A stretch of DNA of 20,000 nucleotides, taken from positions 312,671 through 332,670 of the forward strand of contig MU006110.1 in assembly GCA_010093705.1 (NCBI GenBank), read 5' to 3'. The stretch is from Patellaria atrata CBS 101060 (taxonomy: Eukaryota). The position numbers and the translations under genes were made by a program. This document shows, piece by piece, positions 97 through 20,000 of this stretch (its first letter is position 1; the number at the start of each line of letters is the position of its first letter). A model generated the notes under the pieces. It ran no database searches and was not told where the DNA came from. It worked only from the letters and a program-made list of their open reading frames with translations.

Positions 97-243
97 TGTT
101 ACATTATATTAGTAAGGGTGGGTTATGAACGGCGGTATAAGATTGGGTGAGATTGTGTGAGATTGTGTGAGATTGTGTGAGATTGGGTGAGATTGGGTGA
201 GATCGGGTGAGATTGGGTGACGGACTTCCTACTAGGATTGACA
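97..243. mobile_element. Putative 147-bp solo LTR with 5-bp TSD
   Basis: Starts TGTTA, ends TGACA; TTGCA on both flanks (92-96, 244-248); encloses the 10-bp tandem array. Confidence 0.5.
141..220. repeat. 8 x 10-bp tandem repeat GATTG(G/T)GTGA
   Basis: Eight contiguous copies, one with a GATCG variant. Confidence 0.95.
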
Positions 244-551: not shown

Positions 552-728
552 ATGTGTGAGAAGACAGTGTCCCTGAAAAAATGGGCGTGTGGCGATGAGG
601 AGGAAGAAGAAGTCAAATTTGAATCTTGCGGCGATTTGAGCAAACCTGGTCATACAGTTAAAATTAACACTCTGGGCTCTAAACGCGTTGGAAGTAAATG
701 CGGGAAGTTCGGCTGCCGCAACCCCTAA
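552..728 (+). CDS. 58-aa Cys-rich microprotein (below ORF-track cutoff)
   Basis: MCEKTVSLKKWACGDEEEEEVKFESCGDLSKPGHTVKINTLGSKRVGSKCGKFGCRNP*; immediately preceded by a canonical intron (GTACGT 491, TACTAAT, AG 551) and a TATA box. Confidence 0.6.
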   Translation: MCEKTVSLKKWACGDEEEEEVKFESCGDLSKPGHTVKINTLGSKRVGSKCGKFGCRNP

Positions 729-1144
729 TGGAATCAATAATCCGTGAGCACCTTCTCTCCAGAACGGTTCTCAACGCTAACAATCGCAAAGAGAGATCTG
801 GATACCTTACTTGGTGGGGTGATAGGATTGAGCGATTGGGGTACTTTTACGCATGGAAGACATGCAAGGCCACATTCATTAGCAAGCGATTATTGGACGT
901 TATTGTTCAGCTTGTAGTCACTCTCCTTTAAAGATATAAATGCTATAAATAATGTAGTATTTATCGCCTAAATTCTCATGCTCTTGTGACTTTCTTACCA
1001 TCTCGGAAAAGGCTAAATGGGTTGGTATGATGCGCACGTGATTAGTGAGACGTTCCAACATCGCATTCAAAACCGCAACTCTCTTCCTCATTAACTACCA
1101 CAAACCATTCCATTCTTAAACACAAAGTACTCTCACACCACAGA

Positions 1145-2018
1145 ATGGAGTCTCTACCATACCACGGTTCTACCTCGGACTTCTTCCGCTTTGATACCGG
1201 CCGGATCATCAAATTGCCTATGAAGGTTTGGGAAGGAAACCCAAACCACCAAGAGTTAGAGGAAGAAATGGAGAGAGCTATATCCTTCGAACGAAAGATT
1301 TTAGAAAAACTAGGTAGCCATTCTAGGATTGTTCCGTTTGTTTTCCCCCCAACCATATATAGCCGCGAAGCTAAGCGTCCTTCACAGATATCTAGGAGCT
1401 TATGATAAGGGCATTCTGCTTAGAGAAGCAAGCCATGGAAACGTACAAACATACCTCAATTCCAACCTCGCGGTAATCGATAATTCTCTACGCTGGAAAT
1501 GGTCTCTGCAAGCTGTTGAAGCTGTTGTATATATACACAGCGCGGGCGTAATACACTCGGACCTGCGACCCGAAAATTTCTTAGTACATGCTACAACTGA
1601 ACTATCGCTAGACCTCTGGCTCTGCGACTTTGGCGGAGCGAGGTGTGATAAGCTGGGATTGAATGTCCACCACCTACCCGACGATCCGTTTTTTGACCCC
1701 CGATTGCCGTGGGTTTCCACACCGGCAGTTGATATCTTCAGTTTGGGGTCTATCATTTACACTATCCTCACAGGACACTGGCCGTATAGAGAGGGGTTGC
1801 CCCCGGTAACTATGGAGGAGAAATGCTCATATGAGTCCAACGTGAACAAGATGTTTGAAGCGGGTGTCTTCCCAGATGTCTCCAGGCTGAGAGGCGGCAG
1901 AGTGATCAAAGGATGCTGGGACCACCAATACCAAACGGCTGAGGAGGTACTATTAGCTATTAAGTCGGAGATGGCAGTGCTGAATTGCAAGTCAGCCAGA
2001 AGGGCGGAGATGCTCTAG
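1145..2018 (+). CDS. Small Ser/Thr protein kinase, 273 aa; exons 1145-1335, 1388-2018
   Basis: Intron GTTTGT..GCTAAG..CAG (1336-1387) joins two ORFs in frame; motifs IIK, alphaC Glu (FERKIL), HSDLRPEN, DFG, DIFSLG. Confidence 0.88.
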
Positions 2019-2354
2019 GAGCTAAGAGGGTTAATAGACTAGTCTATAGTCTGTCAACACTTGATCAAAACATATTGCAATGGGAGGAAGGGATATAAGC
2101 TCAATTACAATCACTGTAAAAATTAGGATGATGGAATAGGACCTTAAAACACTTTCTAGAAACTATAGGTTCGATTCTCAGAAACTAGGGCGCATAAATC
2201 GACCAAATCGGTCATTTAGAGAACTGGAAAGCGGAATCACGAATTGTGATCTCTACGGCGCTTAAGTAGTTCCATAGTCAAATTAAATCCTAGTACAAAC
2301 CTTTATAAAAAGGAAGGATTCTTGTACCTAGGTGGAGTCATCTACCCCAAGACA

Positions 2355-2914
2355 ATGCTTTTTGCAACTCTGATTCGAGTCCTTACGGTATATCTTCTCG
2401 TCCGTGTCAGCATCCTCTCATATTTCTCAACTTGACCCCATATTCTGATCCTAGGAAAATGGGAACCATCGTTGTGATTATTGTAACCCGACACGACACA
2501 TGGCGAAGCACTTGTTCATTATGGGGTCATCTACGACGAATCTCCATAGTCCTAAAACGTCGAGTTGATATAAGGGCCGAGGGTCCGCCGCCATCTGAAG
2601 AAAGACTCCCTATAGAACTATCACCCCCGCCACCATACGTTGAGAACCCCCCACATCACCTAGAGCATAAAGATAACCCTACCGGAATTAGCGGTTGTTG
2701 CAAACCACTTAATTCTCACCAGCTGGACTAGGTTGAGAAGGTAACTGTGCCACTGAGACTATCAATCGAGCTTTTCGGAGTCTAACACGTTTAGATCATA
2801 TTCTGGAGCCAGGTCCAAGATGTATACCACTATTGGCGGATGAGGTGGATTTCATGTAGTGCAAATACATGCACGTTTTCAATATGTCTTGTCCATGTTA
2901 GGGTTTCTTCGTAG
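2355..2914 (+). pseudogene. Unresolved small spliced gene or gene relic
   Basis: TATAAAA near 2304, ATG 2355 with hydrophobic start, PPPPY-containing ORF 2432-2731, clear intron GTAACT..CTAAC..TAG (2741-2794). No consistent single reading frame could be built. Confidence 0.3.
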
Positions 2915-3781
2915 ATATTCTGGACTATCATCGTCACAATTTTCGAACGTTGGAAGCGCCATTATTACAGTGCACGTGAGTGCGAATACTCGAATGATCA
3001 TACTACTGATTTAGGCCAAAACTTGTAATAGTTTGCGAAAATCGAAGTGAATCTGCGGCACACGGATCTCAATTTCAATGCTTTGCGTATGCCCACACTA
3101 CTGTGCAGCTTTTCGGTTGAGTATTGAGAGTAGGTAATTCCGTGGGTAACACGAAGTATCGGGCACCGCCGAGCGGTGGGTGGTCAGGGTGGTAGGATGC
3201 CCGCAATGTGGACCGTCGATTGTTTAGTCTCGCAAACGCCAAGACTTATTCCATAACCGTTACCTCGAAAGGAAAATCAGTACGGAGTACGAAAATGACG
3301 TTCCTCTCCGTACCTACTTTCTTCAGATACTTCAGTTTCACTACGTTGGAAGAGCACGCAAGTTTCTAAGTACATAGCAAAGAACACTTGTACAGTACCC
3401 CCTCACCCAAATCGAAATAGGACCAAGACACTTATCCACAGAGGGTGAGATACTAAGATGGGACATCCGAGTCTAAGTGATAAATGACTACAAGTACATT
3501 ATAGAAGGATCAGCAAATATTACGATGTATATAACTAAGATGAAGTATGGCCTAGCTACAAAGTGTCATTTCAATCCCCTTGCGAATATATAGACGAGCC
3601 ACGGTGTTGATCCAGCGTACTCGACCCCGAAGGGAGTCCCAGCACAATACTGCCTGATAGGGATCTTCCCTTAGCTGATCACTTTGTCTCGCAAGCTTCC
3701 GTCGTAATACTCGAACCTGTCGTGTCTTTGGGGCGAGGGGGTCAAGAACAAACCGTGCCTGGGTGGTGTTCTCATATTGAC

Positions 3782-4219
3782 TTAGTAAAACGCGGCGACG
3801 AGGTATGGAGTTTGACCAACCTGAGACATAACCCGTGAACTCAAAGATGCGATTTGGTCCTGCAAACCAATATTTTGCTTGCATAAACAATCATATTCCT
3901 CCATATATCTGTCCAAGTCCGCTTTACACTCCTGCCACGCGTTGTACCACCCAAGGAGATCGGCGCAGATTTCCTCTACCTTTTCCTCCGCTTGTTGGCG
4001 ATGTCCCTTTGCTTTCTCGAGCTCGTCTTTAGTCGTATTATGGGCTTGTATCTCCGTTTGTAGAGCGAGAGAGCATTCAAGTAGCGTAAATCTACTCTCT
4101 GGTGTACTCTCCACTTCTGATTCGTTTGCGACTTCTGTCTCGGGTGACTCTACTCTGCGGCTGCGGCGTAGATCCCGAAGGAAAGGATGCTTAGGAATTG
4201 TACAAGCTGAATGACTCAT
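3782..4219 (-). CDS. Hypothetical coiled-coil protein (possible extra 3' exon to 3552)
   Basis: 145-aa ATG ORF rich in E/K/Q/L with heptad-like pattern (LQTEIQAHNTTKDELEKAK..LQDQIASL). Confidence 0.6.
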   Translation of the reverse strand: MSHSACTIPKHPFLRDLRRSRRVESPETEVANESEVESTPESRFTLLECSLALQTEIQAHNTTKDELEKAKGHRQQAEEKVEEICADLLGWYNAWQECKADLDRYMEEYDCLCKQNIGLQDQIASLSSRVMSQVGQTPYLVAAFY

Positions 4220-4389
4220 TTTAGGGGCTGGGTGATAATTCTCTCAGAGACTCTAGTTCTACAGGAATCTATCCTGACTTTATGTGTCCGTTACACGCCC
4301 GTGTCCTGTTGCTCGTTTTGGAAGTACTAATATAAGACTTTAGCGCTGGATCAATTTACCTCTTGCACTGAGATGAGTTCCTGATTTAT

Positions 4390-5658
4390 ATGAGCGCTAA
4401 GCAGCGCTTATATCTTCAGTTCCCAGCCTCATCCTTCTTTGAGACAGGAAAAATGTCGTTCGCAATGGACGGTGTTTTCAATCGACATCCTCGTCCTCAA
4501 GCTGCGTACCTGCCCGTCCCAACTAAAGCGGCATTGTTGACCCAGAATATTATGAAAGACAAACCTCACGATGGCCTTGTAACTCTGGAAAAGCCAAAGC
4601 CTATCAAGTCTCGTCTGTCATACCCTACCCGGCTCATAGATAGCCACCGGCCCAATACCAATGTCCAAACTATTACTATCGAGCAGAAATTTCCTTCCGA
4701 TATACTCACACGAATGGGAACCTTGACCCAAGGCCAAAAACTGTGGATGGTTTGCCGGTGTATCACTCCTAAGCATAGTGGCGAATTGATAATGTTTAAG
4801 GATTGTAAGCCAGGAGAAGCATCGCGTGAGATCGGAATTCTCAAGAAACTATCACATCCGAACATAGTCCAACTAAAACAAGCATTCATTCATCAGAACA
4901 TCTGCTATGTAGGAATCACCTATCTTCGTTTTACCCTTAGGGAAATACTCTATGTCCATATGAGCCTTGGTGAACTACAAGTTAAATATCTAGCCAAGGA
5001 GGTAGGTTGCAACCCTATTGATACAGGATATCTACCCTAACGTTTTTACCTGTCCTGCATAGGTCTTTCAAGGGCTTCAGTATCTCCACGAGAAAAAGTG
5101 CACCTATACTGGATTAAACCTAGACTCTGTACGAATCGATGGAAAGAAAGGGAACGTTGTTCTAGGTAAGTTCGATAGTGCGCTAAGGGATTATCGTTAA
5201 CAACGATGTAGAGGGCTTCTCTCAGGCATTTCTAGATGATGATGATGCTGATGCTGATGAACATGGGACTTATATAATGAATTCGCATGATAGTCTACAA
5301 GATCTCGGATTCATACTCCTTGAGTGTATGGAAGGACGGCCGGCGGAGACTAAGCGTGACATTGATTTCATAAAGAAACAACGGGAACAATACAAGGTCT
5401 TTGGATTACATAATGCTGAGGCCTGGAGTGGATGCAAGCAGCTTATCGACTTTCTCGATGAGTTATTCAATGTGGATAAAGAATTTACCGCGAAAATACA
5501 ACGGCCAGTAAGTTGTCTAAGTTTTACGCGATACGCTCGCTTACGTATTGCAGCACGAATTCATCAAGGAAGATGGTGTAGGTCCATCATGCCTAATGCA
5601 TTACCTGGAGTTGGTCTCGCTAGAATGTTTCACTGAGTGGCAGGCATATATAGCTTAA
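4390..5658 (+). CDS. Protein kinase-like protein, probable pseudokinase; exons 4390(or 4453)-5001, 5063-5165, 5212-5507, 5554-5658
   Basis: Three canonical introns keep frame; IMFK, REIGILKKLSHPNIVQL, VFQGLQYLHEK and DLGFILLECM present. HRD region reads YTGLNLDSV and DFG position reads EGFS. Confidence 0.78.
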
Positions 5659-5927
5659 CGCGCGCCTGTACTGAGATATAAGAATACTAAAGATGAAGTT
5701 ATTGGAAATAAGTTATTATATTGTGACTATATGATTAAGGAATTCATAAACTCGAAGTGGAAATTTTCGCCGCCGTGCTAATTCTGAACTTGCTCAGACA
5801 ACTGCCTTACAGTAACCTACTTTAAGCGCAATCGTTCAATTTAGCGCCTGCTAGCACTATAAAAGATACATAGAATTTCTACCTTATGTACACTATCGCA
5901 AGACAACCACAGCACCTTCTAATCACT

Positions 5928-6670
5928 ATGGCTTCCGTGCAACACCTTGAACAGCCTGCATCTGATCTTATTCTTAATAAACCTAAGGATTTGAGGCCCG
6001 AAAGTGAGGAGTTCTTCCCTAATAGTTCGATGAACACACCCCAACCAAACCCAAAGGCCCATGGTACATTGGCTAGAGACTGCTTAGAGCTTCCTCCTAT
6101 CCTACCAAACCCATCTGTTCCAGTCAATGGTCATCTTCAAACATATTTTCACAATTTTGGGCCCACACCTCTATATGCTCCTATGCAACCCTCGTTTGGA
6201 CATGTTCTCCCGTCATTTCCCCCGAGCCACACATTCCTACCAGAGTTCCACAGCGTACCGCACCCCTCATTAGGGCCACAAATGACGATGGGTTCTCAAT
6301 TATCCATACCACCCCCTTTCTTACCAAGTGTGAACACTCCCCGTCACGGTGAATGTTGCATGGAATGTTGCATAAAGCAACGTGCTCGAGTAGTTTCATT
6401 GGAAAATGAAGTCACAGATCTTCGAAGGTATATAGTCCACAGTAATCTTGAGCGTATCGCTTATGAGTCAATAGATCCTACGATGATTTGCACTCTAAGA
6501 TCCATAAAGAATCGAGAAATCTTGAGAAAATGGCGATATGGAGTAAGGAAGTCGGAACCTGGGCTATATTCATCAATAATCTTCTCCTTCCCATTACAGA
6601 AGACGAGTCGAGTGAACCGTTCCGGGGATTAGAAGTAGTGTCTGAAGACACTGAGGAGCAGTTGCCTTAA
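5928..6670 (+). CDS. Pro-rich protein with CCxxCC motif and C-terminal coiled coil; exons 5928(or 5886)-6427, 6475-6670
   Basis: TATAAAA near 5858; intron GTATAT..TAG (6428-6474) joins ORFs 5886 and 6488 in frame (LENEVTDLRRSYDDLHSKIHKE). Confidence 0.65.
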
Positions 6671-6877
6671 AACCTGGGATCTCTTTTATTCACTTTGACC
6701 CGTTGTAATTATTTTTCCGTGAATCTCATTCTCGTAGCAATAGTTCCCATCTTAGAATAGTGATAATTACTTTCTTGAGTTTAAGAATTCTTAAATCTAT
6801 TAGTCTCTCAGAATAAGCGCGTATAAAGGAAGATAAATTGAGGAATACACCCACTAATATGAATCCACAAGCAAAAC

Positions 6878-7243
6878 ATGACCCGAGTCCACTTTTCATA
6901 CCCTCTTGTGACCATGATCACGCGTCATCCGACGGAAATTGAGATGCGAAATATGGATGACTTTCAGATTCACCTGGAAAGGTGTCCACGTTGCTATCAT
7001 TTGTCTCTAGACGACCCTCGAGCGTTATGTCCCAGAGCTTGGAACCTCGCAAACCATCTTCAGGAATATTTATTCATGACCAATGGCCGACTGTTCAGTA
7101 CATCATCTAGACAATTTCTTATCATGGTAGAACTACCAAAATACTTCGACTTTGTAGACTGGTTTTTCCGGTCTGTAATAGGTCAGAGGTACCGATATCG
7201 ATATAGACCAAATGCGAGCATGCCCATTCATCGACTTCGATAG
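6878..7243 (+). CDS. Small hypothetical protein with H-x3-C-x2-C..C putative Zn site
   Basis: 121-aa ATG ORF, TATAAA near 6822, AAAACATG context, motif HLERCPRC..LC. Confidence 0.62.
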   Translation: MTRVHFSYPLVTMITRHPTEIEMRNMDDFQIHLERCPRCYHLSLDDPRALCPRAWNLANHLQEYLFMTNGRLFSTSSRQFLIMVELPKYFDFVDWFFRSVIGQRYRYRYRPNASMPIHRLR

Positions 7244-7289
7244 GTGGAGCGAGCGAACGATCTTACTGAGCAATTCTAATATTCAAAGA

Positions 7290-7494
7290 TGTTAGAATTG
7301 AGAGTCACGCAAGGTGGCTGGATATCTGAGATGGCTGGCACAGGATAATGGAGATGGCTGGCACAGGACAATAGAGATGGCTGGACAGGCATGGATTTAA
7401 GATAGGACAGGCACTCACATGATAGTTGACAATGAAGGAACATTCTACATCATTCTATTTACTCTCTTAGCTCATACCAGCATATATTTCAACA
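7290..7494. mobile_element. Solo-LTR-like remnant (205 bp), no TSD
   Basis: Termini TGTTAGAAT..ATTTCAACA, both one transition from TGTTGGAAT/ATTCCAACA; internal 23-bp tandem repeats; flanks AAAGA/CGACT do not match. Confidence 0.55.
7328..7389. repeat. About 2.7 x 23-bp repeat GAGATGGCTGGCACAGGAYAATR
   Basis: Units at 7328, 7351 and a partial one at 7374. Confidence 0.85.
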
Positions 7495-7667
7495 CGACTG
7501 TCCTCCCTGCTAGCGCGGGCGACACAATGTAACACACTATTGTTCTAACCGCTGCTTCAACCTATGAGTATGCTTACGCATCTTGCTTTAACTATAACAC
7601 TACACTATGACTATGAAATCCATTAGGAAGTAGCATTAACTTTATATTAGGAATTGATATATCATGC

Positions 7668-8204
7668 TCACTGATTACTGCGCAGTGCATCCAAGATCTT
7701 GGCAATACTGCGATAACTGTTGCTTGTACGCCCGAAAACTGCTTCAACACTAAAGAGAGCCTGTTCGCATAAGCCCTCTGCTTCCTGCATTCTACTAGTC
7801 TGTTAGAAGAGAACTGCCATATCCTCAGCTATGTTAAGTGCCGATATATACGTCTTCACCCCTCAGTCAAGTGCTTTTCTTATAGCCTTGTTATGAAACG
7901 AGAATAAAGCTATGGTAAAAGTGAGTTGAATTGGTTACCGACCGGTTGGTAGACCGTTCCGTAACAAGCCTTGCAGCGCTCGCCAGCACATCTCCGCCGC
8001 CTCGTCAAGCCGTCCCAGGCCTGCGTAGAGCCTGCCTAAGTTATTGACCGTCTTGAGTGTTGATGTATGATCCGGTCCCCATGCCTTCTCTTTGCCTTAC
8101 AGCGCTCGCAAGCACATCTTCTCCGCCTCGTCAAGCCGTCCCAGGTTCGCGTAGAGCGAGCCTAAGTTGTTGACCGTTTTAAGTGTTGATGTATGGTCTG
8201 CTCC
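7668..8204 (-). pseudogene. Decayed 3' tail of the NLR (about two TPRs plus capping repeat)
   Basis: TPR units continue past TAG 8205-8207, with TAA at 8097-8099 and a 78-bp insert. A frameshifted cap follows (KALD*GVKTYISALNIAEDMAVLF*QTSRMQEAEGLCEQAL..LRSNQ*). Confidence 0.8.
7889..7966. mobile_element. 78-bp TG..CA mini-element (tiny solo LTR or TRIM-like) with 5-bp TSD AGCCT
   Basis: TGTTATGAAACG..CGTTCCGTAACA (10/12 inverted match); AGCCT at 7884-7888 and 7967-7971; removal restores CAA GGC TAT (QGY). Confidence 0.85.
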
Positions 8205-9400
8205 CTATGCCTTCTTAAAGCCTTGCAGCGCTCGTAAGTACATCTTCTTCGCCTCGTCAAGCCGTCCTAGGGATTTATAGAGCGAGCCTAAGTTGTTGAC
8301 CGTGGCGAGTGTTGATGTATGATCCGGTCCCCATGCCTTCTCATAGCCTTGCAGCGCTCGCAAGCACACCTTCTCCGCCTCGTTAAGCCGTCCCAGGTTC
8401 GCGTAGAGCAAGCTCAAGTTGTAGACCGTAATGAGCGTTGATGTACGGTCTGGTCCCCATGCCTTCTCTTTGCCTTGCAGCGCTCGCAAGTACATCTTCT
8501 CCGCCTCGTCAAGCCGTCCTAGGGATTGGTAGAGCGAGCCTAAGTTGNNNNNNNNNNNNNNNNNNNNNNNNNNNNNNNNNNNNNNNNNNNNNNNNNNNNN
8601 NNNNNNNNNNNNNNNNNNNNNNNNNNNNNNNNNNNNNNNNNNNNNNNNNNNNNNNNNNNNNNNNNNNNNNNNNNNNNNNNNNNNNNNNNNNNNNNNNNNN
8701 NNNNNNNNNNNNNNNNNNNNNNNNNNNNNNNNNNNNNNNNNNNNNNNNNNNNNNNNNNNNNNNNNNNNNNNNNNNNNNNNNNNNNNNNNNNNNNNNNNNN
8801 NNNNNNNNNNNNNNNNNNNNNNNNNNNNNNNNNNNNNNNNNNNNNNNNNNNNNNNNNNNNNNNNNNNNNNNNNNNNNNNNNNNNNNNNNNNNNNNNNNNN
8901 NNNNNNNNNNNNNNNNNNNNNNNNNNNNNNNNNNNNNNNNNNNNNNNNNNNNNNNNNNNNNNNNNNNNNNNNNNNNNNNNNNNNNNNNNNNNNNNNNNNN
9001 NNNNNNNNNNNNNNNNNNNNNNNNNNNNNNNNNNNNNNNNNNNNNNNNNNNNNNNNNNNNNNNNNNNNNNNNNNNNNNNNNNNNNNNNNNNNNNNNNNNN
9101 NNNNNNNNNNNNNNNNNNNNNNNNNTCCGCCTCGTCAAGCCGTCTCAGGTCCGCGTAGAGCTTGCCTAAGTTATTGACCGTCTTGAGTGTTGATGTATGA
9201 TCCGGTCCCCATGCCTTCTCATAGCCTTGCAGCGCTCGCAAGCACACCTTCTCCGCCTCGTCAAACCGTCCCAGGTCCACGTAGAGCTTGCCTAAGTTGT
9301 TGACCGTGTCAAGTGTTGATGTATGATCCGGTCCCCATGCCTTCTCAAAGCCTTGCAGCGCTCGCAAGTACATCTTCTCTGCCTCGTCAAACCGTTCATG
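7972..9400 (-). repeat. 126-bp (42-aa) highly conserved TPR tandem array
   Basis: Unit ..RLDEAEKMYLRALQGxEKAWGPDHTSTLxTVNNLGxLY..; eight DEA-type motifs visible, about four more inferred in the gap. Confidence 0.95.
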
Positions 9401-12029
9401 ATCCGAACACACGTATCCAAATATATGCAGAATCGAGTTCTTCCCATCCTCATCCAACCTGCCGTCGTCAATAAACCCCCAACACCTTATCAAGTGTCGC
9501 AAAAGCCGACGCTGGGTCAGCCACGAGTGCTGCACATTATCCTCGGGTGCATGTCTGCCTACACACTTTATAGCCACCCCCGCCATCTCTGAATCCCATT
9601 CTTGGTTCACTACATGCACCGTCCATGAGTGAACACAGCTGTGCATCCCGTACCCCTGAGACTCGACCACATTTCCTTTAGAGGACTTGTCCACATCTAT
9701 CAACCCGTAGTCACAGAGCACCCTTACTGCCTTGGTGAAAGTCAGCTCATCCTCTGTTAGTTGATAAAGCCACTGTGGCCCACCAGTTCTCCCTTCTCTC
9801 AGAAGCTCAAACCAGAGGTCCTGGTTGTCAAAGTATGCCCATAGCTGAAGTAGCTTGGATGCTATCTCGCTCTGCTGCTTGATGTGATCTAAAGAAAGCT
9901 GCCATGTCGAGTACAGTTGTCGGTCTTCGTATGTGCTTACTTCAGGGCTCATTTGTTGTAGCCTTCGCCATGACGCCCGGTACAGACAGAGGTAGTCGGC
10001 AAAGCTTGTCGCCACCTGATAAAGGTAGGCGCCTGCCGTAGCCAAGGCCAGCGGTAGTCCATCCAGCTCTCTAGCAAGCTCGGCGGCATTAGGATCTGAA
10101 AGGCGTTAGCGTTGCGTCTACAGCGCAGTACAGCGCAGGAATTCAAACAACTCACCGTCTATCACACCCTCGCGATGCGATATATTAGACAGGATCTGCA
10201 GACTATGGCGGACGTCTTCTAACTTGCCCACCTTCACGCGATAGCCCATATTGACCTTCGATGACCTTGTCGTGATGATTACCGAGCCGTGGTGCGCTTC
10301 AGGCAGAAACTGCCGGATATCGACTGCACCAGGATCCACGTTGCCTGGCACCTTAGGGTTGTCGTAGTTATCGAACACAATTAACCACTGTGTGTTCTTA
10401 GGATGCTCCAGCCACCGTTTAGCCGCTGCCACCACTTCATCTTGCTTCTTGTCATCTGTGAAAACACCTAACCGACTGGCTGATGGGCAGTCCTGTAAGA
10501 TCCGCTTTACTAGCCGCAAGTAGCTCTGCTTCACCGACACTTCGTCTTTAATGTTCAGCCAGAATATCGCTGAATAGTTGTCTCGATGGGCCTTGATGTA
10601 TGCAATCGCCAGCTGCGTCTTCCCGATCCCGCCTAGGCCATGTAGAGTGACTGCTTGACGACCGGTGCCCTCACTAAGCGTCTTGTGCATTGCAGTGAGC
10701 TCCGCTTGTCTCGCAACAAAGTGATTGGTCTCAGAGACCTCAGATAAGCTAAAGACGACAGAAAAGCTCTTTTCAGCATTGCTTCGAGCTATAGACAGTT
10801 ACTGTTATCGCTATTATCGATAACTATATACAAGGGCTACATACCCGCATCAATCCTAATCTCTTCTTCCCATCGTAGGCTGATGACGCTGCCTGCACTT
10901 CTAACCATAGTAATCAAATGGCCTGAAACTTTCTCATAGTCGTTATTCTCTTTCGACTCGAACTTGACCATTTCTTTATGGTCCGCATGGATCATGATCT
11001 GCTCTGCGTCGGTTGCACCTGGAACGACTGCGGATGCTTTTGGCACCACCTGTATCATCAGTACTTGCGATACCTGCGGTCAACGTGAAGGCATACCATG
11101 ATTGAACGACCTAGCGCCGTCGGAGTCTCGTACTCCTCGTAAACAAACTTCGTCATAAACTCCCCACTGATCGGCCCGTACTGTCTAAGCTGCTGCTGGA
11201 GCCATTCCGAGTCTCGCTCCAAATGCTCTAGCAGCCGGCTGGTGGTGGCCTTGTATACCGATGCCGCATTCACCAGCAGCTTTCCGAACTGCACTCCGTT
11301 GCCGCCCTGGTGAGGTGTACCTATGAACATGATTCCGTACGTCGACGTCTTAATCGACCGGTGCTCTTCTAGTGCGCCTTTCCGCGCCGCGTCCGAGTGA
11401 ATGAGAGCCTGGGCTTGATCAGCTGTGTATGCGACAGAGAGGAGCAAGACTGACGCCTTTGACGATGATGCCACCCAGGCTGTGCGCCACAAAGATTATC
11501 GGTCGTTTCGTGGTCTTCTGCTGTCAGAACCACATCTTATGAGTGTCCGCTCTTATCTCACATTTGTACGTTTTCTCCTGAGGCAGAGATCTGACACTAG
11601 CTGCTCTGCATGATCGTGGAGGAATTGGTGGCTAACACGCTTGCCGTGCGTGTTCGCATCGTATCCCCAGCAGAATATGCGTGCATTTGGAATGTCCTTT
11701 GGTAGGAGATCGCGGAGCCAGTGGGTGCCGTTCGCTGCCGTCCAGGTCTCGTCGCGGTGCCCGTTCAAGCCATGGACAGCAACGATGCTGGGCACTGTCA
11801 GTACGGGCTCTTGTGATGCTACGGATGGCTTACTCCACCACCGGCTGCTCTCCCTCCGCCACGACCTTGAGACCATGGGCAGATGCTTTAGACGGTTCCC
11901 GTGGCTTCGATGAGCTGCCAGCCTGCTACAGCGTCAGCCTGACAGAGGCAGAGTATCAGGGTCGATAATTACAGAGTTCTGACGATTCTTCCGGAATGGA
12001 TTCAGTCGCTGCAATCTAGAGCCCATCAT
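8205..12029 (-). CDS. Fungal NLR: SesB-like alpha/beta-hydrolase, NB-ARC, TPR; 8 exons; premature stop
   Basis: Introns 11972-11926, 11833-11788, 11561-~11518, 11454-11409, 11096-11050, 10844-10789, 10155-10096. Hydrolase motifs VDIVAVHGLNG, AHSLGG, GTPHQG, ADHKEM. NB-ARC motifs GLGGIGKT, LIVFDNYD, IITTR, GLPLAL. Confidence 0.9.
8548..9125. other. Assembly gap (578 N) inside the TPR array
   Basis: Run of N flanked on both sides by the same repeat unit. Confidence 1.
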
Positions 12030-12715
12030 GGTTCGAACGCAGGATTCAACGATATCGCCAATGCTAAAAATTCGTGAGAACTGCTGGGTTCCATCGTACT
12101 GGGCAGCCTGTATTAACATTTAACACTGTCGGTTCAGCTGCGGGGCGCCGCCAATCCATGGCGCGGACGCAGTCAGCCCCCAGCGCCGCCTCTGTCACGT
12201 CCGCGCCGCGAGTGGGTGGGGGCCGAACTGCGCACAACAATCGTTCCATCGAAAGTTGTCGACGTACATTCACCTGAATATATGGTAACGATTATGTACG
12301 ACGTGAGGGATGGTTTTGCACTAGCCGGGATTGGAAACTTCTCTGATCGGAAGTACCAACTAGGGTGACGACCTTACATGATTTGCGCGCCATAGTAGAC
12401 ACAAGGCTAGTGATGACTTCCCAACATCGTAGTAAGGTTCTAGGGACTAGATAGGACCGCTAATAAACATTATGGAGTGATAAGAGCTTAACGGTGGTAC
12501 TATAGGGAAGAAACTCTATTTCGCTATCGAAGGAGGTTCTCTGCGAATCAGGCACGGAAGTAACAATACGTAACGTTATTTTAGATAGAAGGGGTCCTAG
12601 ATATCTAGGAGTAGTTATAGCACATAATTCATGTAGGATTATAATGAATATCAACATGTAAGGAATGACTAGGCGAGTTGAGATAGATACCTAACTGAAT
12701 TGATCCCATAAATGA

Positions 12716-14803
12716 CTAGAAAGTATCCTCGAATTTACGCTTACTCGGAACAGTTGGTAATGGCTTTTGAGCTACATGATCAGCCGTCCCAAATGGAGCG
12801 TAAAGACCTTGAGCTTCGATAAGATTCGAAACACTTCTTGGGAGGCCACTTAGCATCCGTGGTTTAGAAGTAATACCTAGAATCGAAATGCAGATTATAT
12901 CATTCAGAGTAGCCACAGAAAACCGTAGACGTCGTCCGTATGGAGGAGCGCCACGTGGAACCCGTTCCACACATGGAAATGAAGAGCCCATGAACAGAAA
13001 GTATGAGGAAGTTCTCCGTAGCGCGTTGTAAAGAGCGACCGTCCCCTCTTTGTTCAATTCCATGCGGCAGTACACCATACCCTCACAGAGGTATTGTCCA
13101 TCGCTAAAAGTCGGAGTCGAAACAAGTTCAAAGTAGAACATAGAGGCAAGTATAGAGTCCAGGATGCGAGGAACCTCAGAGTCTACTTTAAGTGACAATG
13201 AAACTTTGTCTTTGATGCCCTCCATCGATTGTACATCATCTAAAGTAGGTTCCAAATCGGTAAACGTTACGTTAAGTCGGTGGTAACGCCACTGAGATTC
13301 CCTAGGAAGCGAGAGCTTGAATCTTCGCCATGCATCCTCACCATCCATTGTCTTCATCAATGTGTCCAGGAGGCGGTACGCAAATCTACGGTTCACAGGT
13401 GATTGTGGACCGACAGTAATCGAGTTAGAGCACATACCAGTCCCAAGGGACAACACAAAATCGGGATCAGCTTTGTCGGGCCACAAACATCTGGTCTCCC
13501 AGTATCCAATATCAATCGGATTATTGTGTCGAAGTCCACCATCTTGATACGTGCCAAGGTTTCGTAGAAATTTTGGCCGGAAGTACCAAGGCGCGGCGGA
13601 TGTGCAAGATGCCCTTTGAAAAAAGTTAATGGACTCATGCTACTATGAGTTGAGGATTACTTGCGCGTCACTAATCGTCATGTCATGTTCCGAATCTAAT
13701 GCTCGGATAACTTGATAACCTAAATGATTTATTAGAGGCGATACGAAGAAGACTGTGGAATTTGGTGACTACCTTTAGTAGGAGACCTGGGTAGCCCGTT
13801 GTAATTCGCTATGAGACAAGGCATGGTGCCCCGAGCCGTTGTAGTTGTGACTGCTACTTTAGTCTGACAGCGCAATGGGTTGAACATTTTGACCGGAGTG
13901 TTCTCAGTCGAACGAAAGATTTGCTCAATAGCGCTTGAGTCGTATCTATAATCGTTAATATATGAGAGCAGTAGGTGCTGTATCCCTGCTAGAGACAAGA
14001 ATGACTTGTTGCCGTGTTTGAATGTTTGAAGTGCAAGGTGTTCAAAATTCTTAACGCATTCCTGGATAGGCCACCGCATGGTCATCAAACCAAGGCTGAT
14101 CAAACCACCAGTAGACGTTCCACAGACGTAGTCAAATGCGTCTCTTATACAGCAACCGAACTCATTAAGGGCGGAGTCGAAATATTCCAGGAACTTTAGA
14201 GGAGCTATGCCTCGAACGCCTCCTCCATCAATACTTAGCATTCGGATGCCTGCAGTCGGAGGTATGAATTGGAACACATCATCTTGATTAGAATGCCCGC
14301 AAAGTGGACAAAGTGAGATGATGAATTGAAATTTCGACGTCCTGGAGCGCTTGCCGACGGTCTTTATACAGGTATCACACACCGCGTGTGCGCAATCGAA
14401 GACCTTCTCTGGTGAGCGCATAAGACAACAAAAACAACTCTTGTTGCTCTTGAGCTCAGGAAACCGGGTATGTAACGAGCGAAGGCACTCTAGGTGTAGC
14501 TCAACCACACTTATGGGGGGTTTATTTGAGTTGTAGAGACGGATGAATTCACTTTCCGTCTCCGTGAGAAACTTAACATGAACATCCTCGTGTATAGTGT
14601 AACTACGAATGGCTTGCTGACAGGCTTTTCGACACAATCGGTCGAATAAAAGAGCAGGGGGAAAAGCTACATGGGATAGCATTAGTATTACGAATGCAAA
14701 TGAGAAGCGCCATATATACCATGAGAATTAGCGGGATAGTTGGCCAAGAAAAGACACGATGCCGTGAGCGGAACAACGACATGCCAGAGCCAGGCTTGGC
14801 TGG
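12716..14803 (-). pseudogene. RING-finger + patatin-like phospholipase, 3' part; interrupted at 14803/14804 by copia
   Basis: Exons 14803-14720, 14666-13773, 13719-13665, 13613-12716; motifs DGGGVRG, GTSTG, CTSAAP, YQDGG; C3HC4-like pattern at 14299-14436; no stops in the visible part. Confidence 0.88.
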
Positions 14804-15012
14804 TGTCAGATTTGTGATGCACAAATCGATGGGGGGATATCGCTTGATTGTTTAATGACTGTTCTAACGAGCGTTTAAATACATGAGAACATGCAGGCAA
14901 CAGCGTTGATACCTACTAGGCAGCTGTGTCAAAGGAATGGTGCTAATAGCTAGCGTAAGGCAGTAGGAAATATACTTGATTATCCGTTACTACTAACTTC
15001 TTCAGTCTGACA
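14804..15012 (-). repeat. 3' LTR, 209 bp
   Basis: TGTCAGA..TCTGACA termini; 14804-14880 identical to 19924-20000. Confidence 0.95.
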
Positions 15013-15021
15013 CACCCTTCC
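15013..15021 (-). promoter_or_regulatory. Polypurine tract GGAAGGGTG
   Basis: Abuts the 3' LTR, just after the pol stop. Confidence 0.75.
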
Positions 15022-15033
15022 AGCTCGAGAGGC

Positions 15034-18000
15034 CTAGAGAGGGACTACTCGTGCTGTATAACCGTTTTGGGTCTTCTTTCTTGAATCGAGCTGTTCGACG
15101 TGATGCTGGATATCCGTCATTCCTAACTGTAGGAGGAAGTGTTGATGCTTCTGTGGAGGTAACAATTTGGTGAATCCGTCAGCTGGCATCTCAGCTGTAG
15201 GCTTCCAGTTGACGGCAATGGTACCGTTTTGGACCTCTTGACGTAGCCAGTGTTGGTGAATATCTACGTGTCGAAGTTTAGTTGTGAGTTGAGGCGTATC
15301 AGCCTCAAGAAGCCGTATAGTTTGGCGATTGTCGCAGAAAATTGAGATCTGTTGTTCTGGATCGAAATCAATATGATCAAAAAGGCGTTTCCACGAGATC
15401 AGCTCTCTAGCTGTTAAAGAGAGCGATAGCAGTTCAGCTTCCGTGCTTGACGTGGTGACCGTATCTTGCTTTGAAGCTTTCCAATCAATTGGTCCACCAA
15501 ATAACGAAAATAGATAGCCCTGACTACTTTTGCGATCTATAGTATCATCAGCAAATGATGCATCTGAGGCAACTACGAAGATCGTGCTATCCTGTGGCTC
15601 GTTGCTATACCCAATGGAGCAAAATCTAGTATGGTATAGGTAACAAATAGCTTGTTTTGCCGCTTTGATATGTCGTTCCGACGGATTGGTGAGGTATTTC
15701 GACAGTTCTGAAGCTGCTTTAGCTACGTCAGGTCTTGTTGTTGAGGCTGGCCAAATAATTGAGCCAACTAACTGCTGGTAAAGGCGAATTTGAGAAGGAG
15801 ATGCCTGAGTTGTGGACCGTTCTAAAACACCAGATGGAAGCGGTGTTCGTGGAACTTTTCCGTCGAATTCGATCAGTTTGAATTTTGAGAAGATATTCTC
15901 AAGATAGGCATCTTGACAGAGCCATAGCTTACGTGCGTCTAGGTCACGTACGATACGGATACCTAGGAAGTACTGAAGATCTCCAAGATCTTTCATCGGA
16001 TACTGAGCCATTAGTTTGGATTTGAACTCTTTTAGTTCTTCAGAATAGTATGCTGAGCAAAGTAAAACTATATCGTCCACATAGAAAAATACGGTTAGCC
16101 AGTCATTCGTATACAGGCAATTGACACCTGATACTTCAGATAGACCCAGATCTTCAAGGGACCTAGATAGTGTCTTCCACCAAAGTAGAGGAGATCTTTT
16201 AAGACCATATAGGGCTCGTTTGAGGTGAAGAACGGATCCAGGGGTTGTAAATCCGTTAGGTGGGATGCAGTATACCTCTTCGTCAAGTGGGCTGTTTACA
16301 AAGGCGTTTACAGCATCTAAATGGTGAGCTATTAGGCCAAAAGCAGCTGCAATCGATAGCATAGCTCGCATAGTACGTATAGCTAGAGTAGCAGCATAGG
16401 TATCCAGATCTGTGTATTGCAAATCGCCTCTGACGCAAAGTCGCGCTTTGAACTTGGTTAGAAATCCCTCCTCGTCGTATTTGTATGTCCAAACCCAAGT
16501 CAGGGGAACTATCTGAGTTCCTTCTAGCAGATCGGATCTCCGTTCAACAGTAAACGTGCCACGACGCTGTAGTTCAGTATACTCCCGAGTGGCTGCTGTT
16601 AGCCAATCTTGCTTAAAAGGGTGATTAAGAGCTTGCTTCCAACCACCTGGTGCTGGGGGAAGCTGACTTCTATGTAGCCGGTTCGTTGGTTGGATTTCAC
16701 GTTTTTGGGAGGCTAAAAAGGAGGTAAATAGCGCGTTATGGTCCGTTCGGCCACGGCGACGTTTAGAAGTTAGTATATTTGATTCTGAAAAGTCAGACGA
16801 GATTAAATTAGCTCGTGGGGCCGTGTTTCGTGAACTTCTAGCATGAGCTGTGGTGTTTGACGAAGTGGAGGGGCTGGGCTCGTTTTGAGCCAAATCCTGA
16901 GTATCTTGAGTATCCCTTGCTAAATCTTGGGCAAGCTCCTGGGTGAGCTGATGGGACGGATCCTCAGGAGCCGAATCTAAGGCATCATAAAAGTCATGAT
17001 ACTGATCCAGAGGAGTTGCTACTTGTTGCTGGGGGTCAACACCATCTGGTGTAGCTCTCGGGCTAGGTAGGTAAGGATTGGGTGACCTTTGAGCGGATAT
17101 GGCGCTACTATTGGCCGATGGTATGGGACCATTTTTGGTTGTATCCTTAAGAGTAGGAACAAGCTTAGGGGCAACCCCTAATTCCGAAAAATCATCGTCA
17201 TTGTCTAGTATGGCTGGGAAATCTTCCTGCAAGGCCATAGCCCTGAGTTTGGCTGGTATCTCGATTATGTCGATGATATCTTCAGTGGATTCCTTCAAAA
17301 TGTGACCAATGTCGATGGCTTGAGGCCTATATAGCTCGTTTTCATCAAAACGAACGTCTCTTGAGGAGAAAACGCGTTTACGACTAGGAACCCAGATTCT
17401 GAAGATATTTGATGAGTCGTATCCAACTAGGTAGCCAATATGGGCACGTGGATCGAGTTTTTGAAGTTTGGGTATATCTTTCTTCAAAACATATGCTTTG
17501 CAACCGTATACTTTCAGGTGGCTAAGATCTGGTTTCCTACCAGTGACCATTTCGTACGGTGTTTTCCAGTTGAGCCGTTTCTGAGGAGTCCTATTAGCTA
17601 GATATACAGCTGTATTGATTGGTTCAATCCAGATATCGTGGGGTAAATTAGCACCAATTCGTAGAGAGCGAGCCTTTACTACCAACACCCTTCCAGAAGC
17701 TTCAGCACCTCCGTTTTGGGCCTGAGTGCCAGGGGCTGATGGTTCTGATATGCCACCTTCTGAGGCGAGTAGGTCGTAAAATTCTGCTGTAAGAGCACTC
17801 TCACCGTCACGTTCAAAATAGACAACTGTATGGTCAAATCGAGCTTTGATACGAGCAACGAAATATTTGCAAATCTGGCTAACTTGGCTTTTCCGAGTGT
17901 GAGATACGGCTTCGTGCCAGCCAGTGGCCCTATCATAGAAGTGAGATACGTATTTGCTTCCGTTATAACCACCTTTAAGGTAAATAAGGTCAAAAGCAAC

Positions 18001-19764
18001 TCGTTCAAAGGGTCTCGTTGCGGGTAAAGTGGCCCTTGGTCTTCGTGAAACAATCTCTGTTGATTTAGTCAAAGCGCAAGTTTCGCATTCGACTGTGGTA
18101 GGACCTCTGCCAAAGACTTCAGCTCCAGTCACGTTCGCTTGGAGATGTTCGAGGGTCTCAGGTCCTGGATGTGCGAGCATTTTATGCCATTTCTCAGCAG
18201 GGGCTGATATTGGCGGCCTCGGCTGAGCGGAGCGAGTTACCATAGCGACGCGCTGTTGATTGATGTCAAGCTCGACATGATGGAGTACGTATAGGGTGTC
18301 AATCAGGTAGATTTTACAAATTTCGTTTCCGTCTAAATCCTCAAAGATCCCTTTCCGTGCGTGGTGGAATACTCCTCGTTTTTGAGCTCGAGACTGTGAG
18401 ATCAGAGATGTTCTGAATTGTGGGCATAAATAGGCGTCGTTCATAGTGATATAGTCCCTTCCGTATGGTGTATCTACAGGGACTTCAAAGCTTCCGATGG
18501 CTTCAACTAGAACGGATCCAAAGCCCATTCCGAGCGTTAAACCTGGTTCTACTCGTTCGATCTTAAAGATGTCCGGATTGTTGCAAACGTGGACATCAGA
18601 CCCACCGTCTAGCAAGAAACTAGCTGAGAATTTGAAGGGCAAGTCGTTAGGGAGGCTCGTGGCCATCAGATTGACCTTTTTGCTTGAGGTTTCAGAGGAT
18701 TTGGAGTCGTTTTGCTGTTTTGACCCCTGAGAGGATTCCTTGAAAATTGACCGGATATTGTCAATAGTATACTTAACTCTATCGCTAGATTTCTGATACT
18801 TCTCTTCGACCTCTCGTTGAGTCTGATCAGAGTAGCTATTAGTCTTCTTGACAGCTGGATTGATGTAGGAACACGTATAGAATAGGTGTTTTTCTCCACA
18901 AAGGCATGTAGGTGGATCCCGCTTATCACCAGTGTGAGATTTCTTAGATTTCTCCTTTTTGTCAATGTTAGCTGTTGGGTTATTTGATTCTCCCTGAAAG
19001 GTGGCAAAAGCTGTGCTTGATGAGCCTGATCCAGAGTTACCCCCAACAGCCTAAACGGATCGGTAATAACTAGTGAATTCTGAGATAAGGTCATAGACGT
19101 CGTCGACATATTTCACGGTGTCTCTGGTTGGTGTAACTTCCTGAGTAATAGGTTGAGAGGTCAGTTTTGGTATGGATCTAATCTGTCTGTTAAGATCTTT
19201 CTGACAGGAAGTTGCCCATTGTGGATCTATCTTTTTGAGGCCTTCAAGTAGTTCGAACTCGAGCATATGGCCCTGATAGAGGGGATGGTTGGACGTTTTG
19301 CACTCAGTATAGACGGTTTCAAAACGTTGGAGCCAGTCAAGAACTGAGCTCTTTTTGATAGTTGATCTCAGACGGTAGATCCGGGCCTGAAGATCCAAAT
19401 AGGTGGCTCGATCGTCTGGTTGAAGTCTCTTCTTTAATTCAACAAGCCTTTCGTGAAGGGTATTCAGCCTGATGATAAAAACAAGATGTTGAGTTGACAC
19501 AGATTCGAACACAAAGTCAGATACGTTATCTAACTTGGTCTGAGCCTTTTCGAATTCTCTATACAGAATTCTATGATTTTCGACAGCAGCAGGGTCCTTA
19601 TCTGTCAGTTGATCTGGTGCGCTTAAAACAGGGGGTGAAGCATCATTTGGATCACAATACTTCCAGGCCGTGCCTGCTTTGCCCCTTATAAGGCCAATCC
19701 ACAAGTTCCAATCCGTCGAGGAGTTGAGAACAACAGTAGATTTGATAGTATTTGAAGACGACAT
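15034..19764 (-). CDS. Gag-Pol polyprotein, single frame with one internal TAG (19051-19053)
   Basis: ATG 19764 (MSSSNT). Zn knuckle CLCGEKHLFYTC; protease LLDGGSDVH; integrase WHKMLAH..CETC, AFDL, RDGE, NGGAE; RT YVDD; RNase H SDASFAD, TEAEL, ADGFTK. Confidence 0.93.
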
Positions 19765-19910
19765 TGTGGTAGCGGTTGGTATCAGAAAACCAGATAAAAA
19801 GGGAGGATATTTGAGCAAAGATAGGATCAAAAGAAGGTGAACTTGATACACCAAAGATCTAAAAGATAGACAAATATCCGATATAAACTGATTTTAGAAC
19901 CTAGGGCAAA

Positions 19911-19923
19911 CCGGGCTCATAAC
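19911..19923 (-). promoter_or_regulatory. Primer-binding site GTTATGAGCCCGG (initiator tRNA-Met anticodon arm)
   Basis: Directly adjacent to the 5' LTR; complement contains GGGCTCATAAC, the conserved tRNAiMet anticodon stem-loop. Confidence 0.85.
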
Positions 19924-20000
19924 TGTCAGATTTGTGATGCACAAATCGATGGGGGGATATCGCTTGATTGTTTAATGACTGTTCTAACGAGCGTTTAAAT
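19924..20000 (-). repeat. 5' LTR (partial, runs off window)
   Basis: 77/77 identity with the 3' LTR. Confidence 0.95.

What the first reader, a model, noticed from the sequence alone, without database searches (positions are those of the whole stretch)
552..14803. Candidate immunity/allorecognition island: hydrolase-NLR, RING-patatin, kinase, pseudokinase and small Cys/coiled-coil proteins
Seen: no housekeeping genes; two lipase-type genes in tandem 686 bp apart, beside an intact kinase, a catalytically degenerate kinase and several small proteins. Known: SesB-like hydrolase and patatin domains are effector domains of fungal NLRs (patatin PLP-1 acts in sec-9/het-z incompatibility), and plant NLRs work with pseudokinases (ZAR1 with ZED1/RKS1). 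Inference: these genes could form a linked sensor/decoy/executioner module rather than a random pile-up.
Basis: partly seen in the sequence, partly recalled or inferred. Interest (0 to 1): 0.7.

Follow-up and report, generated by a model that had tools for sequence, protein, structure and literature searches.

The report
Decayed Starship block with conserved pseudokinase
These genes are the decaying helper-gene block of a giant fungal transposon (Starship), and the interesting part is an enzymatically dead kinase that keeps turning up next to the block's membrane-cutting lipase gene in other fungi, hinting at an overlooked partner for it.

Summary
The genes are real, but they are not a stand-alone immune island. 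The 'RING-patatin' is the 3' two-thirds of a ~960-aa gene split by a recent Copia insertion. Its 5' part lies on contig C38 beside DUF3723 and ferric-reductase (FRE) pseudogenes. DUF3723, FRE, patatin (PLP) and NLR are the known Starship auxiliary set; all four are damaged here, and no captain of their own was found. The NLR looks like a later arrival: 84-87% identical to Pleosporales NLRs, GC-rich, 3' end broken, not seen beside PLP or pseudokinase elsewhere.

Two things were not found in print. First, the pseudokinase is a family-wide dead kinase (catalytic Asp in 0 of 14) lying 3-22 gene models from a PLP in 8 of 11 comparable species and diverging in step with it (rho 0.75-0.84). Second, the PLP is predicted to be GBP/atlastin-like GTPase fold + RING + patatin. 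Best reading: a degraded Starship whose conserved core includes a PLP-pseudokinase pair, probably regulatory. Binding and function are untested. The scan noted the captain relics earlier, and a similar Starship relic in another genome.

The parts
552..728 (+). Small Cys-rich ORF, 58 aa; gene status unverified
   Evidence: ORF only; no Pfam family; no homologue in the fetched loci
1145..2018 (+). Intact-motif protein kinase, 2 exons, 273 aa
   Evidence: Model with GT-AG intron, HSDLRPEN and DFG; Pfam Pkinase 61 bits; internally deleted paralogue at C37:118-650, dN/dS 0.25 over 144 codons
3782..4219 (-). Coiled-coil ORF, 145 aa; gene status unverified
   Evidence: Only sub-threshold coil hits in Pfam; no homologue in the fetched loci
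4453..5658 (+). Pseudokinase, 4 exons, 350 aa (database model P0049 starts 21 codons earlier); member of a conserved dead-kinase family linked to PLP
   Evidence: kinase fold by AF2 and Foldseek; linkage
5928..6632 (+). Pro-rich ORF with a CCxxCC motif, 234 aa
   Evidence: Paralogue at C37:35.2-35.8 kb, 63% aa, dN/dS 0.55, with a stop in the C37 copy
6878..7243 (+). Small CxxC protein, 121 aa; possibly a second companion of the pseudokinase
   Evidence: Homologue 3.1 kb downstream of the pseudokinase in L041, 28% identity, E 3e-6; ESM Atlas lead 0.87 to an uncharacterised Ascomycota cluster
7296..7495 (.). Short dispersed repeat
   Evidence: About 25 matches at 69-93% on other contigs and elsewhere on C22
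7668..12029 (-). SesB-like hydrolase-NB-ARC-TPR NLR; open to 8208, then premature stops and a decayed tail; 578-N gap at 8548-9125
   Evidence: the TAG at 8205-8207 and the insertion lie in public contigs with 0 differences (possibly the same sample)
7889..7966 (.). 78-bp internally deleted LTR-like remnant (TG...CA) in the last TPR, TSD AGCCT
   Evidence: both ends match a ~170-bp repeat on C22 and C37
12716..14803 (-). 3' part (homologue aa 317-954) of the Starship-type PLP: helical linker, RING-HC, patatin (DGGGVRG, GTSTG, DGG intact), C-terminal beta domain; 5' part on C38:45549-46502
14804..20000 (-). Ty1/Copia retrotransposon inserted in the PLP gene; LTR 14804-15012, second LTR from 19924 cut by the contig end
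   Evidence: RVT_2 and integrase; LTRs 209 of 209 identical; 5,083-bp overlap with the C38 end at 99.88%; TSD GCTGG

Best explanation
The window is the distal part of the auxiliary-gene block of a degraded Starship transposon: FRE, DUF3723 (+ coiled coil), PLP, NLR, small genes, pseudokinase, kinase. It is being killed by RIP-type stops and retrotransposon insertions (shown; about 0.85). Within such blocks the conserved unit is PLP + pseudokinase, not this NLR (linkage shown). Most likely working (inferred): the PLP is a regulated membrane lipase. Its GBP/atlastin-like, probably GTPase-dead N-terminal domain would drive oligomerisation or membrane docking, and its RING adds ubiquitin control. 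The dead kinase would act as a non-catalytic regulator or adaptor of it (functional partnership about 0.55, direct binding about 0.3). The pair would serve the element at hyphal fusion or in non-self cell death, as an addiction or allorecognition-like switch (about 0.4). The NLR is interchangeable cargo picked up later. In this genome the PLP copy is disrupted, so the module is probably non-functional here.
For: DUF3723 and FRE lie directly upstream of the PLP 5' part. The order FRE-DUF3723-PLP matches the Voyager reference gene numbers 11352/11356/11357 (PMC9156397 passages). Contig joins C37-C38-C22 are fixed by matching TSDs. Pseudokinase within 3-22 gene models of a PLP in 8 of 11 species: Polyplosphaeria 4, Periconia 4, Westerdykella 5, Bipolaris maydis 3 (eight accession pairs), B. 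sorokiniana 3, Chrysothrix 7, Karstenula 11, P. minitans 22; chance about 1e-11 under a crude model. They are 2.7 kb apart in L039. Pairwise identities correlate: rho 0.84 for 9 pairs; 0.75 (20 of 5040 permutations) after dropping two near-kin. Catalytic Asp in 0 of 14 rows with residues, DFG Gly in 0 of 16, beta3 Lys in 16 of 18. PLP model: N-terminus Z 18.2 to GBP1 (rmsd 3.4, 245 aligned), 17.5 to an SMG1-8-9 chain, 17.4 to atlastin-1; patatin Z 29-30 to iPLA2beta, patatin and CapV.
Against: 3 of 11 species show no linkage for the copies sampled (Lojkania and P. sporulosa on different short contigs; Pyrenophora 3,540 accessions apart). For 7 more species with the pseudokinase no PLP was retrieved. 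L041 (18 kb) has the pseudokinase but no PLP. Gene order is inferred from accession or locus-tag numbers plus equal contig length, not from DNA. Co-inheritance on one element gives the same linkage and correlation without any shared function. The block has no captain of its own: the flanking captains belong to a separate captain + HET-NLR mini-element with its own 3' end. No empty site, DR or TIR could be tested. The fold was predicted for homologue P0003, not for the split gene. No expression or binding data.
Confidence: 0.62

Rival explanations
1. Hitchhiking only: PLP and pseudokinase are both old Starship passengers that stay near each other because the auxiliary block is inherited whole; they do not act together.
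For: Linkage and co-divergence are expected for any two genes on one element. Spacing (3-22 genes) and relative orientation vary (convergent in the window, same strand in L039). L041 has the pseudokinase without a PLP.
Against: The pair persists at 31-49% identity across three orders and two classes while neighbours turn over (NLR here, ankyrin relic in L039). The dead kinase keeps a family-specific C-lobe and an N-terminal RxPRPQ...PTK motif, so it is under selection for some binding job.
Confidence: 0.25
2. One reading: this NLR senses through its TPRs with the pseudokinase as decoy and the kinase as modifier (ZAR1/ZED1-like), and the hydrolase or patatin executes cell death.
For: NLRs are a recurrent Starship auxiliary class. 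SesB-like and patatin domains are fungal NLR effectors. In L039 a repeat-protein (ankyrin) relic sits in the same slot between pseudokinase and PLP. The NLR's first 852 codons are stop-free while its tail has many lesions, so a truncated form may still be selected.
Against: The NLR is 84-87% identical to Pleosporales NLRs, against 43-50% for the PLP and 34-39% for the pseudokinase. It sits in a 97%-supported 7-row clade with six named Pleosporales rows (quick tree). GC3 is 0.61 against 0.40-0.53 for neighbours. No co-location in 0 of 3 comparable genomes or in L039/L041. The intact kinase has no linked homologue in those loci.
Confidence: 0.1
3. Random accumulation of accessory genes in a repeat-rich region.
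For: Several ORFs have no support beyond the frame; many transposon fragments surround the window.
Against: All four Starship auxiliary families occur within about 12 kb once the Copia is discounted. The genome's only DUF3723 match is here. Pseudokinase-PLP linkage recurs in 8 of 11 species.
Confidence: 0.03

Closest known systems
Starship auxiliary genes and 'degraded Starship / Starship-like' regions (Gluck-Thaler et al. 2022, PMC9156397; starfish, PMC11162782; passages read)
   Same: DUF3723, FRE, PLP and NLR together in an accessory, repeat-rich block near DUF3435 genes; FRE-DUF3723-PLP order as in Voyager's reference genes
   Different: No captain at the block's own 5' end, no boundary shown; a PLP-linked pseudokinase family and the PLP's GBP-fold + RING architecture are not described in the passages read
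Tangerine Starship of Xanthoria (PMC13486527, passages read)
   Same: DUF3723 + PLP + NLR, with the NLR showing a separate, horizontally acquired history
   Different: Intact captain and defined ends there; no kinase mentioned (0 occurrences in the main text)
Neurospora PLP-1/SEC-9 and Podospora het-z (review PMC12881547, passages read)
   Same: Patatin domain with intact catalytic motifs; possible role in non-self cell death
   Different: PLP-1 is patatin-NB-ARC-TPR in one chain guarding SEC-9; here the patatin is C-terminal to a GBP-like domain and RING, and no sec-9 lies nearby
SesB-like NB-ARC-TPR fungal NLRs (PMC12258605, passages read)
   Same: Hydrolase-NB-ARC-TPR with 126-bp high-identity repeats
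   Different: Ordinary member; 3' end broken
GBP/atlastin/RNF112/SMG8-9 GTPase fold and CBASS CapV/CapE phospholipases (structure matches)
   Same: Fold of the PLP N-terminus (Z 15-18) and of its lipase domain (Z 27-30)
   Different: P-loop shortened to GxxxK[AS] and no DxxG in 25 of 25 rows, so probably a pseudo-GTPase (my motif assignment); the three-domain fusion is absent from the matched structures
Plant ZAR1 with ZED1/RKS1 pseudokinases (recalled, not tested)
   Same: A pseudokinase beside an NLR
   Different: The pseudokinase follows the PLP, not this NLR

Membership tests
Starship (sensu stricto) | DUF3435 captain as first gene at the element's 5' end, pointing into the cargo | tested here: not met
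   3 DUF3435 loci in G000. The C22 one points away from the window. All three belong to a captain + HET-NLR unit whose 3' ends coincide, on C37 at about 21.88 kb, before the block. No other captain relic in the fetched block.
Starship (sensu stricto) | Direct repeats/TSD and TIRs defined by an empty site | not testable with these tools
   G000 has no relatives held
Degraded Starship / Starship-like region | At least three of DUF3723, FRE, PLP, NLR co-located | tested here: met
   All four; definition from PMC9156397
Degraded Starship / Starship-like region | Auxiliary genes fall in Starship-specific clades | not tested
   No reference set at hand; a Macrophomina PLP is among the top hits, but its Starship location was not checked
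Pseudokinase | Kinase fold | tested here: met
   AF2 pLDDT 79, Foldseek E 4e-14 to STE20-type kinases
Pseudokinase | Loss of a catalytic motif across the family | tested here: met
   HRD Asp 0 of 14 rows with residues (4 of 18 gapped); DFG Gly 0 of 16; DFG Asp 10 of 16; beta3 Lys 16 of 18
PLP-1/HET-Z patatin NLR | Patatin fused to NB-ARC and TPR | tested here: not met
   Homologues carry only Patatin and weak RING hits; the model shows GBP fold + RING + patatin
PLP-1/HET-Z patatin NLR | Linked polymorphic sec-9 partner | tested here: inconclusive
   No SNARE family among scanned ORFs of the window, C38, C37 or 100 kb of C22; short exons could be missed
GBP/atlastin-type active GTPase | G1 GxxxxGK[ST] and G3 DxxG motifs | tested here: not met
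   GxxxK[AS]-type loop and DxxG in 0 of 25 rows; positions assigned by me from the fold
SesB-like NB-ARC-TPR NLR | Hydrolase with GxSxG-type motif, P-loop NB-ARC, TPR array | tested here: met
   AHSLGG, GLGGIGKT, TPR_10/12; N-terminus 81% identical to P0222, whose database record carries PF05057
NLR-pseudokinase resistosome (ZAR1-like) | Conserved NLR-pseudokinase pairing | tested here: not met
   No co-location of NLR homologues with the pseudokinase family; only the best 120 of 591 hits were seen
NLR-pseudokinase resistosome (ZAR1-like) | Physical complex | not tested
   No complex was modelled

The most novel reading that the evidence does not exclude
Starships carry an unrecognised regulated cell-death or membrane-remodelling switch of two pseudoenzymes and a lipase: a GBP/atlastin-like pseudo-GTPase-RING-patatin protein held or triggered by a dedicated pseudokinase (a fifth auxiliary gene), with a swappable repeat-protein sensor slot (TPR NLR here, ankyrin in L039). 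It would act as an addiction or fusion-control system that helps the element persist and spread.
Probability: 0.22. Interest if true: 0.85.

Novelty: new variant of a known kind. Interest (0 to 1): 0.55.

Why it matters
What Starship auxiliary genes do is an open question: the papers read call their function unknown and guess at roles in transfer or hyphal fusion. A domain-level model of the PLP (GBP/atlastin fold, RING, CapV-like lipase) and a specific co-inherited partner turn that into direct experiments. The pseudokinase family would also be a new marker for finding captain-less Starship relics. The locus itself is a decaying copy and matters little.

Tried and rejected
Reading the C22 captain (11 kb left) as this block's captain: rejected, wrong orientation and a separate 3' end. 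Reading the C37 captain as head of one ~130-kb element: not supported, the three copies end together before the block. Reading the pseudokinase as a fresh pseudogene: rejected, open 4-exon frame and family-wide loss. Expression: no RNA holder listed; the two runs laid are probably DNA and show no joints. The careful NB-ARC tree did not finish; only the quick tree of 47 rows (hits P0216-P0262 with at least 150 aligned residues, out of 120) was read, and no test_one_clade was run. Region-wide RIP index in 2.5-kb bins is mostly negative in the window, so RIP is inferred only from the CpA-type stops. A PDB sequence search with one hydrolase exon found nothing. Pfam found nothing for the 58-aa, 121-aa and 2309-2731 ORFs. 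L043 and L044 are generic kinases, and L040 and L042 are too short for context. Literature: 'Starship'+'pseudokinase' 0 papers; patatin+guanylate-binding+RING+fungal+pseudokinase 0; Starship+patatin+GTPase 2 listings, of which one was searched for passages and was irrelevant; searches gave nothing on these points in listings.
Full report
Setting. The window is the last 20 kb of contig C22 of G000. The database labels its proteins as from the genus Patellaria, order Patellariales, Dothideomycetes.

Observation. Hand-built models with GT-AG introns give a 273-aa kinase with HSDLRPEN and DFG, a 350-aa pseudokinase, and an 8-exon hydrolase-NB-ARC-TPR gene with no stop in 852 codons up to the N gap. 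The NLR-patatin spacing is 686 bp. The RING-HC ligands are conserved in at least 90% of 25 homologues. Two corrections follow.

Correction 1: the patatin gene is split. A Copia element starts at 14804. The five bases left of its LTR, GCTGG, recur right of an LTR on C38. The C22 and C38 ends overlap over 5,083 bp at 99.88%, the LTRs are identical (209 of 209), and homologue residues 1-317 map to C38 and 317-954 to the window. So a ~960-aa gene was interrupted recently.

Correction 2: the NLR's 3' end is broken. It has TAG at 8205-8207 and TAA at 8097-8099 (both CpA-type changes), a 78-bp LTR-like insertion with TSD AGCCT, and more stops beyond. Public contigs match across the first stop and the insertion with no differences. 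They are probably DNA and may come from the same sample; the second stop is not cleanly covered.

Context. Directly upstream of the PLP start on C38 lie DUF3723 (the only locus matching in G000), a coiled-coil frame and a ferric reductase. DUF3723 and FRE carry in-frame stops. C38 joins C37 through a second Copia, TSD GAAAC. DUF3723, FRE, PLP and NLR are the four Starship auxiliary families, and regions with three or more of them but no captain are called degraded Starships (PMC9156397, outline and passages; PMC11162782, passages).

Captains. G000 has three broken DUF3435 matches. They belong to one captain + HET-NACHT unit, 91-94% identical between copies, whose 3' ends coincide. One copy lies on each side of the roughly 110-kb block, but neither encloses it. 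I therefore file the region as Starship-like or degraded, not as a Starship with shown ends.

The pseudokinase is a family. A search of 1.84 billion representatives with one exon gave 116 hits. I aligned the window's own database protein (P0049) with 17 of the 19 other hits longer than 250 aa; P0153 and P0163 were left out. The catalytic Asp is present in 0 of 14 rows with residues, the DFG Gly in 0 of 16, the beta3 Lys in 16 of 18. The model is a kinase fold. The family keeps its own C-lobe motifs and an N-terminal RxPRPQ...PTK motif.

It travels with the PLP. Eighteen other species carried a named pseudokinase; for 11 a PLP was also in my lists. In 8 of these 11 the two lie 3-22 gene models apart, judged by accession or locus-tag number and equal contig length: Polyplosphaeria 4, Periconia 4, Westerdykella 5, Bipolaris maydis 3, B. 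sorokiniana 3, Chrysothrix 7, Karstenula 11, Paraphaeosphaeria minitans 22. They were not linked in Lojkania, P. sporulosa and Pyrenophora (for the last, 15 of 31 PLP cluster members were listed). These species span Pleosporales and Arthoniales besides the host's order.

DNA-level check of the linkage. Of 6 metagenome loci, 4 are family members and 2 are long enough to read. L039 has a full PLP 2.7 kb from the pseudokinase, an ankyrin-repeat relic between them, and homologues of two unknown C37 genes. L041 has no PLP but has a homologue of the window's CxxC protein. Pairwise identities of the two genes correlate (rho 0.84, 9 pairs; 0.75 with 7, 20 of 5040 permutations). Periconia pairs with Westerdykella in both genes rather than with its suborder mate Karstenula. 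Shared descent of one element explains this as well as shared function does.

The NLR does not travel with them. Its NB-ARC exon is 84-87% identical to Lentithecium, Corynespora and Clathrospora proteins, against 43-50% for the best named PLP hits and 34-39% for the pseudokinase. Its GC3 is 0.61 against 0.40-0.53, and a quick tree puts it with six Pleosporales rows at 97% (only Lentithecium's order was looked up, the rest recalled). None of the 8 linked species is among the best 120 of 591 hits, and 0 of 3 comparable genomes share a contig (read by eye). This fits a later gain, as reported for the Tangerine NLR (PMC13486527, passages). It is not proof of transfer, since this NB-ARC family evolves slowly (64-71% to the best lichen-fungus hits). 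The intact kinase has a deleted paralogue on C37 and no homologue in L039 or L041; its wider synteny was not searched.

What the PLP is. An AF2 model of homologue P0003 (pLDDT 83) matches GBP1, an SMG1-8-9 chain, atlastin, Sey1 and RNF112 over residues 1-296 (Z 14.8-18.2, next unrelated GTPase 10.9). It matches iPLA2beta, patatin and CBASS CapV/CapE over 464-845 (Z 27-30); the ESM Atlas points the same way. The P-loop reads GxxxK[AS], and DxxG is absent in 25 of 25 rows, so GTP hydrolysis is doubtful (inference). The lipase motifs are intact. This differs from PLP-1, which is patatin-NB-ARC-TPR (PMC12881547, passages).

Mechanism. Shown: gene content, breakage, linkage, motif loss, predicted folds. 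Inferred: the PLP is a regulated lipase, the pseudokinase its non-catalytic regulator or adaptor, and the pair helps the element at hyphal fusion or through conditional cell death. Parallels with TRIB-COP1, ROP5-IRG and ZAR1-ZED1 are recalled, not tested. No binding, expression or phenotype evidence exists.

Novelty. Kinases have been noticed as frequent Starship cargo without further analysis (PMC13562431, passages; bioRxiv 10.1101/2024.06.28.601215, passages). My searches found no paper with 'Starship' and 'pseudokinase', and none with the GBP-RING-patatin terms. The library lacks most subscription papers. I read no supplements; the cargo orthogroup tables of PMC9156397, PMC11162782 and PMC13562431 may already list this family as a generic kinase. 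Also searched for passages, without bearing on novelty: PMC10104507, PMC12258605, 10.1101/2023.02.06.527415, 10.1101/2025.02.28.640899.

Verdict. A decayed member of a known kind of region, carrying an apparently undescribed conserved component and a newly interpretable PLP architecture. Interest 0.55.

Noticed in passing
G000 C37:13.8-21.9 kb, C5:761-769 kb, C22:261-303 kb: Three copies (91-94% identical) of a captain + HET-NACHT NLR mini-element, ~8 kb on C37 and C5 and expanded to 42 kb on C22, with a shared 3' end; the 5' end sits in a tRNA-Glu gene on C37 and in a tRNA fragment on C22.
   Followed up: partly
G000 scaffolding: C37 end joins C38 start (Copia, TSD GAAAC) and C38 end joins C22 end (Copia, TSD GCTGG).
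   Followed up: yes
L023:8140-8280 (-), C38 DUF3723: DUF3723 contains LNGLHRVRAA, resembling the ParB/Srx GxxRxxA motif (recalled); no test was completed.
   Followed up: no
L039:11502-13598 (-): Stop-riddled ankyrin-repeat gene between pseudokinase and PLP (Ank_2, 103 bits), in the slot the NLR occupies in the window.
   Followed up: partly
L031:5420-6460 (-) and 8845-9765 (+), C37: Two genes without a Pfam family whose homologues also flank the pseudokinase in L039 (34% and 47%): further candidate conserved auxiliary genes.
   Followed up: partly
L041:4765-7456: A Pkinase_fungal gene and another kinase lie upstream of the pseudokinase, so an active kinase neighbour may recur though not the same family.
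   Followed up: no
window 15034-19893 (-): Copia with open pol (1,338 aa) and gag-like frames separated by a single stop, identical LTRs and near-identical LTR copies on several contigs: a recently active family.
   Followed up: no
window 125-224: Tandem 10-bp GATTG(G/T)GTGA repeats at what looks like the end of another repeat element upstream.
   Followed up: no
G000 C6:1258316-1260253: A second, divergent PLP-family locus (27-32% to P0003, one stop); neighbours not examined.
   Followed up: no
P0166/P0198 and P0350/P0020: Bipolaris maydis and B. sorokiniana pseudokinase and PLP are each 99% identical, which may reflect recent exchange of the element.
   Followed up: no
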